A stretch of 64,000 bases of DNA from Shigella phage SHFML-26. Positions within the stretch are counted from its first letter, which is position 1. Each line of letters starts with the position of its first letter. The stretch lies in sequence record KX130862; one strand, 5' to 3'. This document shows, piece by piece, positions 11,755 through 18,395 of the stretch. Position numbers and translations under genes: made by a program. The notes under the pieces were generated by a model. That model searched no databases and was not told the origin of the DNA. It saw only the letters and a list, made by a program, of their open reading frames with translations.

Positions 11755-11820
11755 TCCTCCGTAGTTGATAGTTGTATAGTACCACAGAGGAACGGTCTTG
11801 TAAACAACTAAAAGAAACTT
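11755..11820 (-). promoter_or_regulatory. T4 early-type promoter
   Basis: Plus strand GTAGTTGATAGTTGTATAGTACC...TGTAAAC = minus-strand GTTTACA -35 and GGTACTATAC -10. Confidence 0.5.
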
Positions 11821-12122
11821 CTTTCACAATTTTTTCCACTGAACCAAGCGCTCACTGCTTTCTTAGTCTCAGGAGCGGTGTTATCCATAAACCATTCAAA
11901 GGCAGCCTTTTTATGATTCTGGAGGGCTTCTCGGGCTTTAATCTGCTCACGGTCTATTAACACTAACATATGAGCCTTTCTTGTCACCATGGGCTTCTTA
12001 TGATTTTTTGAATACTCCCAATCATTTGTCCATCGCATTGTCGTTGCGAACTGAAATACTGCTTCTTTAATTTTAGTTTCGTAAATTTCACGAGCCTTTG
12101 AGTATAACATCATTACCTCCAT
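11808..12122 (-). CDS. hypothetical protein
   Basis: 104-aa ORF. Confidence 0.5.
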   Translation of the reverse strand: MEVMMLYSKAREIYETKIKEAVFQFATTMRWTNDWEYSKNHKKPMVTRKAHMLVLIDREQIKAREALQNHKKAAFEWFMDNTAPETKKAVSAWFSGKNCERSFF

Positions 12123-12212: not shown

Positions 12213-13193
12213 TTATTTCAGAAGAGTAACCTCAGCGATTTCTTCCCAACCGTTTTTGTCGGTCATAATAAAGTCAGCAAGATAAAGAGCAGTACGCAGT
12301 GAAACATTACGTAAACGGTTAACATTGACTTTCATCCATGATAATGCTTTATAAGTTTCTTCATCAGAAAGACCGCGCTTTTGCATCATGTCGGTTGAAA
12401 GAATAACATCTTCAACCCTGACCATAATTTCTTCATTAGTGTGAACACCCAAATCTAAATAAACTGAGCGGGACACTAATGCTTGTAAATGTGGAGCAAG
12501 TTTAGTACCACGGTCTAATTCGCGGTCAATATCAACGTTTGTGATAAAAACAATTGTTCCTTTAAATTCAAACTCACGGTCAATGCCTTTTTCTTCTAAG
12601 TAAGAAGATGCAGTGCTCCAGCAGACTTTACGGGTCTCTCCAGTGTCCAGAGCAGCTTTCAGAAGATTAAGAATGTCCATATCAGAGAAAACATCCACAT
12701 CATCAATCAAAAGGACAGAATTCTCTTCACGATTATTCCAAAGCTGCTCATAAAGACCAATACCAGAGATTTTACCATTAATGCTTTTATATTCAATGTA
12801 TCCAATATCATTTGCTTTATTCAAAGCTTTATCTAAAGAATACGTTTTACCAATACCCGCCGCACCAGAGATAATTAATGAACGAATGTTTCCGTTAATA
12901 ATACCATTCGTCATCATTCCCATAACATTAAATCTTTTATTAATGCGGGTTTTCATATCTTCATACGATTCTTTAACTTCTTCAACTTTTACACCATCAT
13001 ATGAAATGTCTGATTTGTAAACCCAAACACCGCGACGCTTACCGTCAATTTCAACAAAAACTTTACCATCTCCTTGTGCATCTACCGGAGCATTATCTGG
13101 GAACCATTCGCCTAAGAGCTCAAAAGTTCCAGAGATTTCTTTACCGAAGTAGATACCCTTATTGATAGTTACAGTTTTCATTTTATTCTCCAA
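12213..13193 (-). CDS. AAA+/P-loop ATPase
   Basis: Walker A GAAGIGKT and Walker B VLLIDDVD; 326 aa. Confidence 0.7.
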   Translation of the reverse strand: MENKMKTVTINKGIYFGKEISGTFELLGEWFPDNAPVDAQGDGKVFVEIDGKRRGVWVYKSDISYDGVKVEEVKESYEDMKTRINKRFNVMGMMTNGIINGNIRSLIISGAAGIGKTYSLDKALNKANDIGYIEYKSINGKISGIGLYEQLWNNREENSVLLIDDVDVFSDMDILNLLKAALDTGETRKVCWSTASSYLEEKGIDREFEFKGTIVFITNVDIDRELDRGTKLAPHLQALVSRSVYLDLGVHTNEEIMVRVEDVILSTDMMQKRGLSDEETYKALSWMKVNVNRLRNVSLRTALYLADFIMTDKNGWEEIAEVTLLK

Positions 13194-13295: not shown

Positions 13296-14309
13296 TCATT
13301 TATAATAACTTCGGTGGTTTTCAAGATAGACCTTCTCAAGGAAGTCATCCCAGAAACCCATGTCTACTTTTTGCTGCATACCGTTCTTAGAAGCTTCAGT
13401 AGATGCTGCTTCTACTTGATCGACCACATCTTCCAAAAACTCTTGAACCGTTTTAAATGGATGTTTACCCAACTTCACGTCGAGAATAAATGGAGCGTCT
13501 TGAAGTGGATAAATCAAGTCGCCAGTTTTGTAAATTTCCAATAGTTGGAGTCCACCACGACAAGCATGGCTCAGAGCTTTCCAGTCAATACCTTCATTGG
13601 CTTCAGCCTTACGAGCGCGTTCACCATATTCAGCATCTAATTTGTTCAGTGACTGCTTAAGCTCAATAAGAGAAAGAGTTGTCTGATATTTACGACCCAA
13701 CACTGTGTAAAACGTCTGTGGGCCTGTTTTCTCATGATTATGGAACACCCATTCACAGAATTCGTTTTCTGGAAGACGATGCTTAATATCTTCAACTTTA
13801 GTGCGACGCTGCTTAATAGAACCATCTTCTTGATAATCAATCCATTGCTCAGGGATTTGATTAACTACTTTCAATACATCACGTAATGCAGCCAAACGAG
13901 AACCCTTGACACCGTATTTAGAAGCTTGCTTACGGACATATCCTAAATAGGATTTCATGTTAGTCGTATAAAAACGAGAACGGTTGTCTTGAATAAACTT
14001 CCATACATCAGGCAAATCGGATTTAACCACTAGTTCAGGTGGAGTGTGAAGCATATCCAACGCTACAGTTTCACCATCTGCTGCTAATTTAAAGAAATAC
14101 TTAAGACTGTATAGTTCATGGTCAATATCATCTTTAGTGTTTTTAGATGATGTGTTGTTAGTGTTTTTACTCATATGCTCTTTAACATTTCCGATAAGAA
14201 TATCGCGAGCAGGAGGAACAAAGATTTCTTTAAAATCTACATCAGATTCTGGGGTAGAAGTTCCATAAAGATGACTACCAAAATAGCTTTTCATTACTGT
14301 TTTCATCAT
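13296..14309 (-). CDS. Pol-beta superfamily nucleotidyltransferase-like protein
   Basis: GS-x10-DVD signature (GSHLYGTSTPESDVDF) near N-terminus; 337 aa. Confidence 0.6.
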   Translation of the reverse strand: MMKTVMKSYFGSHLYGTSTPESDVDFKEIFVPPARDILIGNVKEHMSKNTNNTSSKNTKDDIDHELYSLKYFFKLAADGETVALDMLHTPPELVVKSDLPDVWKFIQDNRSRFYTTNMKSYLGYVRKQASKYGVKGSRLAALRDVLKVVNQIPEQWIDYQEDGSIKQRRTKVEDIKHRLPENEFCEWVFHNHEKTGPQTFYTVLGRKYQTTLSLIELKQSLNKLDAEYGERARKAEANEGIDWKALSHACRGGLQLLEIYKTGDLIYPLQDAPFILDVKLGKHPFKTVQEFLEDVVDQVEAASTEASKNGMQQKVDMGFWDDFLEKVYLENHRSYYK

Positions 14310-14767
14310 TCAGCCTTATATTCAATAACAGGACATACTTTAGCTTTACGAGCTTTTAAAAATTCAACGATAATCGATTTCTTGGGTTGAATAGGAGGTA
14401 AACCTTTATACGCCCTATCAATATTTTCTACGTGTAAAGCATAATCCTTTTTCCATTTATAATCTTTATATTTTTCACGCAAATGTGCAGGAATAACAAA
14501 TGAACCGATAATAAGTAAAACAACCAAAAGCGCAAGTATAAATGCCGATGGAAGAAGAGTCCATAAACTACCGAAAATAAGCCAACGTTGTAGGCTTTCT
14601 GCACAAATAATTGTTAGCCCTACGAGTATAGCACATCCAAAAATAGAAACGAAAAATGTAGGAATGGCAATAGACCAAAAATATGCGCATAGTGTCTTAG
14701 GTCGTTGCCATTCATCGTTAAATAGTTTAAATAATTTATAGTGCCAAGAGTTTTCATTAATAATCAT
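14306..14767 (-). CDS. membrane protein
   Basis: Two or three hydrophobic helices. Confidence 0.55.
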   Translation of the reverse strand: MIINENSWHYKLFKLFNDEWQRPKTLCAYFWSIAIPTFFVSIFGCAILVGLTIICAESLQRWLIFGSLWTLLPSAFILALLVVLLIIGSFVIPAHLREKYKDYKWKKDYALHVENIDRAYKGLPPIQPKKSIIVEFLKARKAKVCPVIEYKAE

Positions 14768-14769
14768 AA

Positions 14770-15291
14770 TTATCCTTTCATTGAAGGCGTAACAGTTGTT
14801 AAATACTTAATCATAGCCTCAGCTTCTGATTTTGATAATGAAATTTCTCCATTGTTTTGACGAATAGAAATAAAATCCGGATGACGGTCACCACCAGCTT
14901 TTAAAACACACATATAAGTATCAGTTTCATCTTCAATATTTGAAATGATTGAAGCAGTTCCACATGAATGCGGTTTTTGATAAATCAATACAGCTTTTCT
15001 TCCGCCATTTGACTGTTCATAAACTTTTAATACATCAAACAAATCACTTCTTTTATCAATAGCTAAAATGTTATTTTCATCTTCAATGTTAAATCCTTCG
15101 GATACTTCATAAAGTGTCACCCATAAATCGCCAATATCAATAACAGCGTTCACTTTTCCATGACTTTCAAGAGCATGACAAATTTTCTTGATTTCGTCAT
15201 AACTCATTTTAATAATATCATCTCCTTGAATAAGAAAGATGTCATTTTTAAATTCAACACGAATTAAACCACTTCCACTTGAAATAAACAT
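14770..15291 (-). CDS. hypothetical protein (paralog A)
   Basis: C-terminus SKSEAEAMIKYLTTVTPSMKG resembles neighbour. Confidence 0.55.
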   Translation of the reverse strand: MFISSGSGLIRVEFKNDIFLIQGDDIIKMSYDEIKKICHALESHGKVNAVIDIGDLWVTLYEVSEGFNIEDENNILAIDKRSDLFDVLKVYEQSNGGRKAVLIYQKPHSCGTASIISNIEDETDTYMCVLKAGGDRHPDFISIRQNNGEISLSKSEAEAMIKYLTTVTPSMKG

Positions 15292-15297
15292 ATTTCC

Positions 15298-15855
15298 TCA
15301 CTTTGAAATCATAGTTGGAATGACAGAATCAAGATAAGTCTTTAGTGCAATAGCTTCGTCTTTGGTAAATGTGACAATATGTGATCGAAAATCGTCGATT
15401 TGGCGAATAGTTAAGACATCTCCCTCTTCATAACATTTTGATACATTTAAAAGAGTTTCATCATTCTGATTGCAAGCGTTAGTAATAATAGCATTGCAAT
15501 TTTTGAGCCATTTTAAACTATGTTTTCTTTCATTAGAATAATAAAAATATTTAATCTTAGCTATAAAACTATCCCAATGGATAACTGATAAACACATTGA
15601 CTCACTTTTAATATTAAATCCTGGGCATGAAGAATAAAAATGAATTTTGTGCTCATCATTGATACTTACTATTTTATCAGTATAAGGATATTCAATTTGG
15701 GTTAAATGAATGATTTCACTAGGCGTAAAATATAGCATATCGTCTTCTTGCGTCAAACGATACATGTTATTTACTTTTTCTATAGCCAATTCACCAAAAA
15801 GCGGACTAACTTCTAATACTAATCGTTTCATATTGATTCTCTTCGACTCACTCAC
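15298..15855 (-). CDS. hypothetical protein (paralog B)
   Basis: C-terminus TKDEAIALKTYLDSVIPTMISK resembles neighbour. Confidence 0.55.
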   Translation of the reverse strand: MSESKRINMKRLVLEVSPLFGELAIEKVNNMYRLTQEDDMLYFTPSEIIHLTQIEYPYTDKIVSINDEHKIHFYSSCPGFNIKSESMCLSVIHWDSFIAKIKYFYYSNERKHSLKWLKNCNAIITNACNQNDETLLNVSKCYEEGDVLTIRQIDDFRSHIVTFTKDEAIALKTYLDSVIPTMISK

Positions 15856-15959
15856 AATTACATACTCCTTTGAATAATATCAATAATGTTGTTCATCAGA
15901 TTATAAGTAAACATTGGGTAATTATATTGAATCATTACATACACAACAAACAAAACTTT

Positions 15960-16030
15960 CATTCTCTTCTCCTTGACAGTTGACAAGATTACTATACCAT
16001 AACCTTGCCAACTTGTAAACCGTTAAATGT
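15960..16030 (-). promoter_or_regulatory. T4 early-type promoter
   Basis: Minus strand GTTTACAAGTTGGCAAGGTTATGGTATAGT with A/T-rich upstream region. Confidence 0.45.
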
Positions 16031-16185
16031 TGTTTTCAATAAAATTCTGAAGCTTTGTGTGAGCATCAACCATGATTTTCATTTCTTCCTTTGCGAAAGC
16101 TGTACCTCTTTCCCGAGCAGAATACTCATAGTCAGAAACTGCATTAGCATATTCTTCAATTAGCTTCATTAAAAACATCTGCTTT

Positions 16186-16380
16186 TCAGTTTTCATTATT
16201 CCACCTAATCATTTCAAGATATTGGACTAACTTAGCTTTAGATTTATCCAAATCCCTTTTAGCTGATTCTATACCATCGTATGAATATCCTTCACAATGC
16301 TCAACTGCTAATTGATATGAATCTATTTCAACATCACGTGCTAATTTAATGATTTTTTCAAACTGTTCGTGCGTTAGCAT
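16186..16380 (-). CDS. hypothetical small protein
   Basis: 64-aa ORF. Confidence 0.45.
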   Translation of the reverse strand: MLTHEQFEKIIKLARDVEIDSYQLAVEHCEGYSYDGIESAKRDLDKSKAKLVQYLEMIRWNNEN

Positions 16381-16382
16381 AC

Positions 16383-16583
16383 TTAAACTCTCGTATTATG
16401 ATCGATAATTTCATCAAGAAACATATCTAACGCTTCTAAAGCATTATCGACTTTAGTTTCAAAGTCTTTAATGCCTTTATTCGAAATACCCGATGAATAC
16501 CAAGCAAAGTCAATCAGCTCTTCATCTGCTTTACGAATTGAAGCCACTAATTCCTTAATTTTATCCGCTTGCTTTTCAGTTTT
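16383..16583 (-). CDS. hypothetical small protein (MKTEKQ family)
   Basis: Start at [13 protein letters not shown]; same N-terminus and upstream sequence as an unlisted 57-aa ORF near 16033-16205. Confidence 0.45.
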   Translation of the reverse strand, partial: KTEKQADKIKELVASIRKADEELIDFAWYSSGISNKGIKDFETKVDNALEALDMFLDEIIDHNTRV

Positions 16584-16585
16584 CA

Positions 16586-16819
16586 TTATTCCACCACATA
16601 TGACAGAGAGAATATTGCACACGCCATATGAGTTGCAGCTTCATCACACATATCATAACGTTTCTTAAGAAGTTCTACAAGTTCTTCACTAGTAACTTCA
16701 TCCATGTCGACGAAAAAATCACCATTAATGATGACGTAGATATTTCCTTCTTGATTAAGTGCTTCAATTTTCATGATGTTCTCCTCTTTATCCGATAGTT
16801 GTATAGTATCACAGTTCAA
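16586..16819 (-). CDS. hypothetical small acidic protein
   Basis: 77-aa ORF. Confidence 0.45.
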
Positions 16820-16850
16820 ATGGAAAGTAAACCGGTAAAATGAAAAAAGT

Positions 16851-16873
16851 CTCCCGAAGGAGACTAATGTTAT
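16851..16873 (-). terminator. hairpin with UUCG loop + U-run
   Basis: Minus strand GTCTCC-TTCG-GGAGAC followed by TTTTTTC; overlaps stop of upstream gene. Confidence 0.5.
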
Positions 16874-17256
16874 TCGAGGGAAAGAAGATATTTACTCTGG
16901 TAAAACATCCCAGTAATATCATCTATCGTGCTTTGAATGGCTGGAGGCATTTCTTTATAAATGCTGTTAGATTGGTCTAGTATGCGATCAATCATTTTAA
17001 TTGTGTCGGTAGGAAGTTTACTGGCATCTGGAATAGAAGGCGTGTATTTTCTACCAGAATACCCCAAATATTGCTCACCAAATTTATCAATCAAATCTGG
17101 CAACTCAGAGAAAATAAAATCGTATGCTTTGTGTCTAGCATAACTTTTAGTTTCAAAATGCGCAGAATGAAAATAAGCTTGTGCAGCCATTAATAAACCT
17201 AAGTATTCATCTGCCTTTGAAGGTTTTCCACTTTGTGAAAAGTCGCTGAATTTCAT
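16870..17256 (-). CDS. hypothetical protein
   Basis: 128-aa ORF immediately downstream of rI. Confidence 0.5.
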
Positions 17257-17546
17257 TCAGTCTCCAATTTAATGTTCATAATTCTAGCGTATGATTGTGC
17301 CATCTCCGCGCCTCGCTCTATACATTCAAAATCAGAAGAGCACGGGTCATTTTTATAAGTCGTTCGCATAAAACTATAGAACTGTTCAGATGATTCTACG
17401 CTTTTATTTTCAAAAAGCATATAAACGTGTCTAATACCAGATTCCATAAATTTATCAAAATGAGGATCGACATTCGCTTCAATTGGTGGAGATAAAGCAA
17501 ACGCTAATCCTAGCATGGCAAATAGTGCCGTTGCTTTTAAGGCCAT
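17253..17546 (-). CDS. rI: lysis inhibition regulator RI
   Basis: 97 aa, N-terminal signal-anchor MALKATALFAMLGLAFALS; T4 position next to tk. Confidence 0.85.
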   Translation of the reverse strand: MALKATALFAMLGLAFALSPPIEANVDPHFDKFMESGIRHVYMLFENKSVESSEQFYSFMRTTYKNDPCSSDFECIERGAEMAQSYARIMNIKLETE

Positions 17547-17813: not shown

Positions 17814-18395
17814 CTAACCGAGCTTTTTAGTTAATTCGTTCCAATGTTTTCTACACAAAGAAACATAAATTTCATCACCAATACAGATTTGATTACCTTC
17901 TTTAACTGGTGTTCCATCTTCCATTAATCGAGCTGTCATAATAGCTTTTTTACCACAATGACAAACTGCCTTTAGTTCAATAAGTTTATCTGCAATCGCC
18001 AAAAGTTCTTTAGAACCTTCAAATAATTTTCCAGCGAAATCAGTCCTTAGCCCATAAGCCATAACAGGAACATTATATGTATCAACAATTCGACTTAATT
18101 GATGCACCTGTTCGGTTTTTAAAAACTGAGCTTCATCTACAAATACACAATGAATATCTTTTTGTGCTTCAGCCCATTTATAGAACTCAAAAATATCCAT
18201 ATCATCCGTAATAATATTCGCTTCCTGCTTAATTCCAATGCGAGAAACGACTTCACAGACAGAATCACGAGTATCAATAGCAGGCTTAAGAACTAATACA
18301 CCCATTCCGCGTTCTTTATAATTATGTGCAGCAGTCAAAAGAGAAGCAGATTTTCCAGCATTCATTGCTGCGTAAGTAAAAATTAAACTCGCCAT
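17814..18395 (-). CDS. tk: thymidine kinase
   Basis: 193 aa; P-loop AAMNAGKS, C-terminal Zn ribbon CHCG...C; T4 Tk length. Confidence 0.9.
   Translation of the reverse strand: MASLIFTYAAMNAGKSASLLTAAHNYKERGMGVLVLKPAIDTRDSVCEVVSRIGIKQEANIITDDMDIFEFYKWAEAQKDIHCVFVDEAQFLKTEQVHQLSRIVDTYNVPVMAYGLRTDFAGKLFEGSKELLAIADKLIELKAVCHCGKKAIMTARLMEDGTPVKEGNQICIGDEIYVSLCRKHWNELTKKLG

What the first reader, a model, noticed from the sequence alone, without database searches (positions are those of the whole stretch)
14770..15855. Two adjacent paralogous genes sharing a C-terminal motif
The 173-aa and 185-aa neighbours end with clearly related sequences (SKSEAEAMIKYLTTVTPSMKG versus TKDEAIALKTYLDSVIPTMISK) and have similar length, indicating a local tandem duplication followed by divergence.
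Basis: seen in the sequence. Interest (0 to 1): 0.4.

Follow-up and report, generated by a model that had tools for sequence, protein, structure and literature searches.

The report
Paired PUR-like early genes, T4-type phage
Two neighbouring early genes of a T4-like phage are real but anciently diverged relatives of T4 MobD.1, a catalogued family of unknown function whose predicted fold resembles the nucleic-acid-binding protein Pur-alpha; this is an ordinary finding with a mildly interesting structural twist.

Summary
Minus-strand ORFs 14770-15291 (173 aa, "A") and 15298-15855 (185 aa from GTG, 177 aa from ATG; "B") are homologous over their full length (BLASTP 27% identity over 176 aa, E=1e-8; shuffle z=12.3). 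The N-terminal halves alone give z=6.8.

The window is a Tequatrovirus. B is the orthologue of T4 MobD.1 (UniProt P39240). Both proteins pass the curated cut-offs of Pfam T4_y05I_N and T4_y05I_C.

"Local duplication then divergence" is only partly supported:
- A is about equally distant (19-31%) from all MobD.1 orthologues.
- A and B share no DNA similarity.
- One phage contig carries only an A-type gene.

Two full-length copies occur only in Tequatrovirus-type loci. T4 itself has the homing-endonuclease gene mobD in place of A and the downstream membrane gene. Natural B-A hybrid genes exist.

Function is untested. The fold suggests a dimeric binder of single-stranded nucleic acid, but the family is acidic (pI 4.2-5.8 in all but one member), unlike Pur-alpha (pI 9.4).

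The parts
15298..15855 (-). Gene B: orthologue of T4 mobD.1 (UniProt P39240). 185 aa from GTG 15855, or 177 aa from ATG 15831. Stop codon TGA at 15298-15300.
   Evidence: ORF. 87-90% identical to T4 MobD.1. Pfam T4_y05I_N 133.1 bits and T4_y05I_C 74.9 bits. AF2 model pLDDT 88.
15520..15831 (-). B N-terminal domain (residues 1-104 of the 177-aa form): repeats I (strands 3-35, helix 37-45) and II (strands 53-83, helix 86-99), predicted to pack into one intramolecular PC4-like/PUR 'type I' domain.
15301..15519 (-).
14770..15291 (-). Gene A: 173-aa paralogue (AR1_101; also present in T6). ATG at 15291 lies 6 nt after B's stop, with GAGG upstream. Stop codon TAA at 14770-14772.
   Evidence: ORF; junction sequence. 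Pfam T4_y05I_N 118.5 bits and T4_y05I_C 82.7 bits. Found at 90% identity or more in 432 phage records. Names.
15001..15291 (-). A N-terminal domain (residues 1-97): repeats I (strands 10-29, helix 31-43) and II (strands 49-78, helix 81-96).
14773..15000 (-). A C-terminal domain (residues 98-173): repeat III, ending SKSEAEAMIKYLTTVTPSMKG.
   Evidence: Pfam T4_y05I_C. The model is of low confidence here (pLDDT 48-71). A C-domain HMM gives E=1.8e-27.
14306..14767 (-). 153-aa predicted membrane protein. It is the conserved downstream neighbour of MobD.1-type genes. It starts 2 nt after A's stop, and its stop overlaps the nrdC.11 start.
   Evidence: ORF; junction. PHROG 944 'membrane protein'. The same position is occupied by a 150-157-aa gene in Mosigvirus G53, Gaprivervirus VR7 (annotated 'membrane protein') and contig L010.
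14311..15272 (-). Segment (all of A except its first 19 nt, plus the membrane gene) that has no counterpart in phage T4. T4 carries the HNH homing-endonuclease gene mobD there instead.
   Evidence: blastn of window against T4: homology ends at 14310 and resumes at 15273. T4 annotation.
14932..15453 (-). 522-bp interval (174 codons, in frame) absent from natural hybrid genes (P0020, 179 aa) that fuse the B 5' part to the A 3' part.
   Evidence: Hybrid protein sequence. Three contigs from different samples carry it as the only copy. blastn breakpoints 15454 and 14931, with a 9-nt overlap.
15858..15962 (-). 34-codon mobD.2-like ORF directly upstream of B. Its stop lies 2 nt before B's GTG.
   Evidence: Read from the sequence. 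T4 mobD.2 is 105 bp at the same position. A 34-aa Phage_T4_Y05J gene occupies this position in L010.
15991..16019 (-). Sigma-70 / T4-early-type promoter-like site (TTTACA, 17 nt, TG-n-TATAGT) that could drive mobD.2, B, A, the membrane gene and nrdC.11.
   Evidence: Consensus scan, 10 of 12 matches with an extended -10 TG. This is a consensus match only, not evidence of function.

Best explanation
SHOWN. A and B are two anciently diverged members of the T4 MobD.1 (Pfam T4_y05I_N + T4_y05I_C) family. They sit head to tail, 6 nt apart, in the non-essential early-gene region between rI.-1 and nrdC.11 of a Tequatrovirus. The family is confined to T4-like phages of enterobacteria.

PREDICTED. Each protein consists of three beta-beta-beta-beta-alpha repeats. 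Repeats I and II pack into one intramolecular PC4-like/PUR 'type I' domain. Repeat III is a separate, flexibly linked single repeat. A weaker copy of the same strand-turn-helix pattern sits in repeat I.

INFERRED. (1) As in Pur-alpha and Borrelia Bpur, a lone repeat cannot bury its sheet by itself, so repeat III probably pairs with a second repeat III. That would give homodimers where only one gene is present, and possibly A-B heterodimers here. (2) The dimer then presents two N-terminal platforms that bind a ligand early in infection. By fold analogy the ligand is single-stranded DNA or RNA. Because the family is acidic and lacks the basic PUR residues, a host protein is almost equally likely. 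(3) The two-gene state arose either by an old duplication or by recombination that placed two divergent versions side by side. It is unstable: it collapses to B-A hybrids by unequal recombination, and in T4 the A copy was replaced by the homing-endonuclease gene mobD.
For: Homology: BLASTP E=1e-8 over the full length; shuffle z=12.3, N-domains alone z=6.8; both Pfam domains above cut-off in both proteins; PHROG 1502 matched end to end.

Identity of the locus: about 99% DNA identity to phages AR1 and T4_ev151, with annotated mobD.1. T4 MobD.1 is UniProt P39240.

Independence of repeat III: stand-alone 70-87-aa proteins consist of this domain alone. Two of them lie adjacent in Citrobacter phage Moon, both above the Pfam cut-off. 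pTM is 0.64 despite pLDDT 88, and a 45%-identical homologue superposes at only 5 A rmsd over its full length, which suggests a mobile domain orientation.

Precedent: the PC4-like review describes Pur-alpha as type I (repeats I-II) plus type II (repeat III dimer), and allows heterodimers of paralogues through repeat III (PMC7549692).

History: tree and identity matrix; no DNA similarity and the T4 replacement boundaries; single copy in Mosigvirus and Gaprivervirus; A-type-only contig L010; hybrids; survey of 25 loci.
Against: No experiment exists for any member; full-text search finds MobD.1 only in a table of homing-endonuclease insertion sites.

A's C-domain model is of low confidence.

Frequent truncated or frameshifted copies (T2, ECO4, fPS-90) show the genes are dispensable at least in culture.
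Confidence: 0.6

Rival explanations
1. One reading: a recent local tandem duplication of mobD.1 within this phage lineage, after which the second copy simply drifted.
For: The genes are adjacent, in the same orientation and 6 nt apart. Two full-length copies are seen only in Tequatrovirus-type loci, whereas Mosigvirus, Gaprivervirus and others have one.
Against: A is no closer to its neighbour B (25%) than to MobD.1 of other genera (27-31%), and it branches outside all of them. There is no residual DNA similarity (best 23 nt, E=0.01). Contig L010 has an A-type gene (57% identical to A) as its only copy.
Confidence: 0.2
2. The proteins share only a short C-terminal module acquired by domain shuffling or convergence, and the remainder is unrelated.
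For: The C-terminal domain does occur on its own as 70-87-aa proteins. It is the most conserved part of the family.
Confidence: 0.02
3. Same fold, different job: A and B are acidic protein-binding adaptors or inhibitors (host take-over or counter-defence), or mimics of nucleic acid, and do not bind nucleic acid themselves.
Against: Most top structural neighbours are binders of single-stranded nucleic acid: Pur-alpha, MRP1/2, Whirly, PC4, Bpur, YdbC (PMC7549692).
Confidence: 0.35
4. The database label is correct: these are MobD molybdopterin-guanine dinucleotide biosynthesis proteins.
For: Many RefSeq and GenBank records carry that product name for MobD.1 homologues.
Against: No Pfam or NCBIfam molybdenum-cofactor family matches. 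The same label is attached to the unrelated small genes mobD.4 and mobD.5. In T4, 'mobD' names an HNH homing endonuclease and '.1' only marks the neighbouring ORF.
Confidence: 0.01

Closest known systems
Phage T4 MobD.1 (UniProt P39240; Pfam PF24449 T4_y05I_N + PF24448 T4_y05I_C; PHROG 1502)
   Same: B is its orthologue (87-90% identity, same position between mobD.2 and nrdC.11). A has the same two domains above Pfam cut-off.
   Different: A is a separate deep branch (19-31% identity to all MobD.1 orthologues). It is missing from T4 itself, where mobD takes its place. No function is known for any member.
Eukaryotic Pur-alpha (PURA; PDB 3k44, 5fgp, 8cht for repeats I-II; 5fgo, 8chw for repeat III)
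   Different: No detectable sequence relationship. The phage proteins are acidic (pI 4.9 and 5.7) whereas PURA has pI 9.4. They are shorter, with short linkers and no Gly-rich or Q/E-rich tails. Dimerisation and nucleic-acid binding are untested.
Borrelia burgdorferi Bpur (PDB 3nm7, 3n8b): a single PUR repeat that forms homodimers
   Different: Bpur is described as binding nucleic acids (PMC3764826, abstract). All but one of the phage single-repeat proteins examined are acidic, and they sometimes occur as two different adjacent genes.
Whirly / MRP1-MRP2 / PC4 structural group ('PC4-like domains', PMC7549692)
   Different: By the review's account these proteins bind single-stranded nucleic acid, some as higher oligomers (MRP1/2, WHY2) (PMC7549692). 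No such features could be tested here.
Jumbo-phage ChmC (PMC11077065)
   Same: [quoted passage not shown] It is a precedent for a phage protein of this general kind.
   Different: A different phage family, with no sequence relationship shown here. ChmC is required for infection, whereas MobD.1-type genes are often truncated or replaced.

Membership tests
T4 MobD.1 family (Pfam T4_y05I_N + T4_y05I_C) | N-terminal domain PF24449 above gathering score (24.9 bits) | tested here: met
   A 118.5 bits, B 133.1 bits
T4 MobD.1 family (Pfam T4_y05I_N + T4_y05I_C) | C-terminal domain PF24448 above gathering score (27 bits) | tested here: met
   A 82.7 bits, B 74.9 bits
T4 MobD.1 family (Pfam T4_y05I_N + T4_y05I_C) | Syntenic position in the early region between rI.-1/mobD.2 and the membrane gene/nrdC.11 | tested here: met
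PUR family (Pur-alpha/beta/gamma, Bpur) | Sequence match to the PUR repeat profile | tested here: not met
   No PUR family among Pfam hits at E<=1. Family profile vs human PURA (sequence verified against PDB 8cht and 8chw): hhalign probability 2.3%. No PDB sequence hit.
PUR family (Pur-alpha/beta/gamma, Bpur) | Three beta-beta-beta-beta-alpha repeats, with I+II forming one intramolecular domain | tested here: met
PUR family (Pur-alpha/beta/gamma, Bpur) | Repeat III forms an intermolecular dimer | not testable with these tools
Indirect support: stand-alone repeat III proteins exist.
PUR family (Pur-alpha/beta/gamma, Bpur) | Net basic character, as in the nucleic-acid-binding PURA repeats | tested here: not met
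   A pI 4.9, B pI 5.7, family 4.2-5.8 in all but one member, against PURA repeats pI 9.4.
PC4-like / Whirly structural group | Four-stranded antiparallel sheet plus helix, paired with a second such unit | tested here: met
PC4-like / Whirly structural group | Binds single-stranded DNA or RNA | not testable with these tools
   Needs biochemistry. The charge argues for caution.
MobD / Mob molybdopterin-guanine dinucleotide biosynthesis proteins (database label) | Match to a molybdenum-cofactor biosynthesis family | tested here: not met
   No such Pfam or NCBIfam hit. The label is a name collision with T4 gene names.

The most novel reading that the evidence does not exclude
The MobD.1 family would be the first non-eukaryotic set of proteins with the full Pur-alpha architecture: an intramolecular repeat I-II domain plus a dimerising repeat III. 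In this reading the fold has been re-purposed into an acidic version that does not bind nucleic acid but acts as a decoy or inhibitor of a host protein early in infection. In most Tequatroviruses the two paralogues would form an A-B heterodimer through repeat III, which would be the first asymmetric 'type II' PC4-like domain. The same logic would explain the adjacent pairs of single-repeat genes in Moonvirus and Jiaodavirus.
Probability: 0.15. Interest if true: 0.55.

Novelty: already known. Interest (0 to 1): 0.27.

Why it matters
The direct gain is small. Two "hypothetical" T4-type early genes are placed in a catalogued family (MobD.1 / T4_y05I). They receive a concrete fold assignment (three PUR-like repeats) and a testable model: dimerisation through repeat III, with the ligand still to be found.

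The work also documents how a hypervariable early-gene locus turns over:
- two deep versions of one gene, carried singly or together;
- collapse of the pair into hybrids by unequal recombination;
- replacement of one copy by the homing-endonuclease gene mobD in T4.

It flags a widespread product-name error ([quoted passage not shown]).

If the acidic PUR-like proteins prove to be host-factor decoys or heterodimers, that would extend the known range of the PC4-like fold. Nothing here shows that yet.

Tried and rejected
- Searched for further paralogues in the window with phmmer and with domain HMMs against all 528 ORFs. None were found beyond A and B.
- Looked for distant relatives in 1.84 billion representative proteins. 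Only 25 hits, all from T4-like phages or fragments. A 1572-aa repeat protein (P0061, 12 stretches) looks like a spurious repeat match and was set aside.
- Sequence search of the PDB with the family profile found nothing relevant (TRAP1 at E about 0.4).
- Profile vs human PURA was not significant (probability 2.3%), although the best local alignment is in register (strand-strand-strand-helix).
- Repeat II shows no detectable sequence similarity to repeats I or III (hhalign probability <=1%). It is a repeat by predicted structure only.
- NCBIfam gave no family.
- BFVD fold search found only family members at a convincing level; a 'Whirly transcription factor' phage protein appeared at E=0.03.
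- Literature searches for mobD.1, y05I, PUR domain + bacteriophage, and Whirly + phage T4 found no functional study of this family.
- DNA-level A vs B comparison found nothing.
- Dimer modelling and electrostatic surface analysis could not be done: no multimer tool, no access to model coordinates.

Full report
**1. What is there**

The window is a T4-type phage genome segment. Region 14200-16000 is 98.9% identical to phage T4_ev151 and 98.8% to AR1, and 360 of 507 matching phage records cover at least 80% of it.

On the minus strand the gene order is:
- tk (17814-18395);
- rI.1, then rI (17253-17546);
- rI.-1 (16870-17256);
- several small ORFs;
- a 34-codon mobD.2-like ORF (15858-15962);
- B (15298-15855);
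- A (14770-15291);
- a 153-aa membrane protein (14306-14767);
- nrdC.11 nucleotidyltransferase (13296-14309);
- nrdC.10 (12213-13193).

B is annotated mobD.1 in AR1 and RB32. It is 87-90% identical to T4 MobD.1, which is UniProt P39240, [quoted passage not shown].

B may start at GTG 15855, which has AAGGAG 9 nt upstream and lies 2 nt after the mobD.2 stop. It may instead start at ATG 15831. The 8 extra residues lie outside the conserved domain.

A starts 6 nt after B's TGA with GAGG upstream. The membrane gene starts 2 nt after A's TAA. The genes therefore look co-transcribed and translationally coupled. A T4-early-type promoter-like site (TTTACA-17-TGnTATAGT) lies at 16019-15991. That is a consensus match only.

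**2. The observation**

The lengths, coordinates and C-terminal strings are exactly as reported. The similarity is real and covers the full length:
- BLASTP gives 27% identity over 176 positions, E=1e-8.
- Among 528 window ORFs, each protein's only significant hit is the other.
- Shuffle z-scores are 12.3 (full length), 6.8 (N-terminal domains only), 7.3 (without the last 25 residues) and 7.3 (last 25 only).

**3. Family**

Both proteins match Pfam PF24449 (T4_y05I_N) and PF24448 (T4_y05I_C, "y05I-like putative transcription factor") well above the curated cut-offs. Both match PHROG 1502 end to end.

The family is tiny and restricted to T4-like phages:
- 53 clusters at 90% identity among 5.8 billion proteins.
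- 25 representatives at 50% identity among 1.84 billion proteins.

No NCBIfam model matches and there is no PDB sequence relative. No paper in the searched library deals with its function.

**4. Fold**

The B model is confident (mean pLDDT 88). The A model is confident in the N-domain (pLDDT 84-92) and weak in the C-domain.

Both consist of three units of four (in the third unit five) strands followed by a helix. In B:
- unit I spans residues 3-45;
- unit II spans residues 53-99;
- unit III spans residues 105-170.

- trypanosome MRP1/2;
- Whirly p24 and StWhy2;
- Borrelia Bpur;
- PC4/Sub1 and YdbC.

Within the phage proteins, repeat I and repeat III are detectably homologous (hhalign probability 84%, E=8e-6). 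The shared pattern is roughly L-x-[IV] ... x-Q-x-D-D ... [ST]-x-x-E-hydrophobic helix. Repeat II is a repeat by predicted structure only.

This is the most conserved element of the whole family.

**5. Comparison with Pur-alpha**

The 2020 review of PC4-like domains states that Pur-alpha is the only reported factor combining two domain types. One is an intramolecular "type I" domain (repeats I-II). The other is an intermolecular "type II" domain made from two copies of repeat III. The review adds that heterodimers between Pur paralogues through repeat III are formally possible (PMC7549692).

The phage family has the same predicted layout. Repeat III also exists on its own as 70-87-aa proteins in other Tevenvirinae:
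- In Citrobacter phage Moon, two different such genes lie side by side, scoring 87.9 and 28.7 bits against a cut-off of 27.
- In Klebsiella phage KpV477, one lies next to a related DUF7189 gene.

This supports, but does not prove, that repeat III is an autonomous pairing module.

Membership in the PUR family proper is not supported:
- There is no Pfam PUR hit.
- The family profile against human PURA (sequence verified against 8cht and 8chw) gives hhalign probability 2.3%.
- The charge is opposite. A has pI 4.9, B has pI 5.7, and all but one of the other members examined have pI 4.2-5.8; one stand-alone C-domain protein has pI 9.2. PURA repeats I-III have pI 9.4.

"Works like Pur-alpha" is therefore a structural analogy. 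Nucleic-acid binding in particular is uncertain.

**6. One or two copies in relatives**

- A-type genes at 90% identity or more occur in 432 phage records, including T6, RB32, AR1 and PST.
- MobD.1-type genes occur in 727 records.
- Mosigvirus G53 and Gaprivervirus VR7 have mobD.1, then the membrane gene, then nrdC.11, with a single copy.
- In a scan of 25 loci with domain HMMs, two full-length copies appear only in Tequatrovirus-type loci (L001, L011-L013).
- T4 itself has one copy. Window 14311-15272 (A minus its first 19 nt, plus the membrane gene) is replaced in T4 by the HNH homing-endonuclease gene mobD, and the first codons of A survive in T4.
- Contig L010 (72-85% DNA identity to the window) carries only an A-type gene (P0050, 57% identical to A) at the locus.
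- Three contigs from different samples carry a single hybrid gene (P0020). It has the B 5' part joined in frame to the A 3' part, lacks exactly 522 bp (window 14932-15453) and has a 9-nt overlap at the junction. This is the expected product of unequal recombination between the tandem paralogues.
- Truncated or frameshifted copies occur in T2, ECO4 and fPS-90.

**7. History**

A is 25% identical to its neighbour B. It is 29-31% identical to Mosigvirus-type and alternative-type MobD.1, and 27-29% to the 184- and 181-aa types. The A clade branches outside all MobD.1 orthologues in a neighbour-joining tree. There is no DNA similarity between A and B.

The pair is therefore not a recent duplicate of the neighbour. 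Two histories remain possible. One is an old duplication with fast evolution of A and later losses. The other is juxtaposition of two long-separated versions of one gene by recombination between phages. The A-only contig fits both. I cannot decide between them with these data.

**8. Mechanism, with levels of support**

Shown:
- The two genes are full-length paralogues of the MobD.1 family.
- They are tightly packed in an early-region gene string.
- Copy number varies and the pair is recombinationally unstable.

Predicted with good confidence:
- The three-repeat PUR/PC4-like fold.

Inferred (about 50%):
- Repeat III pairs with another repeat III, giving homodimers and possibly A-B heterodimers here.

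Inferred (about 35-40%):
- The N-terminal domains bind single-stranded DNA or RNA.

A nearly equal alternative (about 35%) is that these acidic proteins bind a host or phage protein, as adaptor, inhibitor or mimic. Nothing else in the neighbourhood constrains the function.

**9. Verdict**

The finding is therefore known and ordinary. It adds a modest structural point (a Pur-alpha-like three-repeat layout in an acidic phage protein family) and a clear picture of locus turnover.

Noticed in passing
window 16023-16196, 16186-16380, 16383-16622 (minus strand): Three adjacent small ORFs (57, 64 and 79 aa) all match Pfam DUF7438 (55-61 bits). This is a second tandem paralogue array immediately upstream of the finding. 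Related contigs show further DUF7438 genes around tk.
   Followed up: partly
window 14311-15272 vs T4 (L002 6451-7258): In phage T4 the HNH homing-endonuclease gene mobD occupies the place of A plus the 153-aa membrane gene. The first 19 nt of A survive in T4, which suggests mobD replaced them.
   Followed up: yes
L003, L004, L005 (Logan contigs), gene at 4001-4540 of L003: Natural hybrid gene (P0020, 179 aa) joining the B N-terminal part to the A C-terminal part through an in-frame 522-bp deletion. It is the only family member at the locus in three samples. These contigs also carry an extra 88-aa 'Phage_tudor' gene upstream that the window lacks.
   Followed up: yes
L010 (Logan SRR8048117), gene at 1533-2057: A divergent T4-like phage contig carries only an A-type gene (P0050, 57% identical to A) where the window has B and A.
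   Followed up: partly
L006 (Citrobacter phage Moon) 2501-2737 and 2727-2957; L007 (Klebsiella phage KpV477) 2314-2505 and 2495-2725: Other Tevenvirinae carry only single-repeat (C-domain) genes at the syntenic locus, sometimes as two different adjacent genes. Pfam DUF7189 appears to be a related single-repeat family: it gives weak cross-hits to A's repeat I and to the KpV477 C-domain protein.
   Followed up: partly
database annotations of MobD.1, MobD.4 and MobD.5 homologues (e.g. AR1_102, AR1_106, T4p101): The product name 'molybdopterin-guanine dinucleotide biosynthesis protein MobD' is spread over many RefSeq and GenBank records. It has no family support and stems from the T4 gene name mobD, which denotes a mobile endonuclease.
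   Followed up: yes
window 11808-12122 / 12213-13193 vs AR1 (L001 1020-1517): AR1 has the homing-endonuclease gene segE between nrdC.9 and nrdC.10. The window has only about 90 bp there, so the window is not AR1 itself, and homing-endonuclease content differs between these near-identical phages.
   Followed up: no
proteins P0051, P0053, P0061 and cluster members: P0051 fuses the MobD.1 N-terminus to the nrdC.11 C-terminus (a deletion variant). P0053 joins a HAD-like N-terminus to a MobD.1 fragment (likely an assembly chimera). P0061 (1572 aa, 12 matched stretches) is probably a spurious repeat hit. Partial sequences in the T4 MobD.1 cluster are deposited under Enterococcus faecalis and Pseudomonas aeruginosa names, which looks like contamination.
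   Followed up: no
window 16848-16865: A terminator-like hairpin (AGTCTCC-CGAA/TTCG-GGAGACT followed by a T run on the minus strand) lies between rI.-1 and the small mobD.5-like ORF. It may separate the rI transcription unit from the mobD.x gene string.
   Followed up: no
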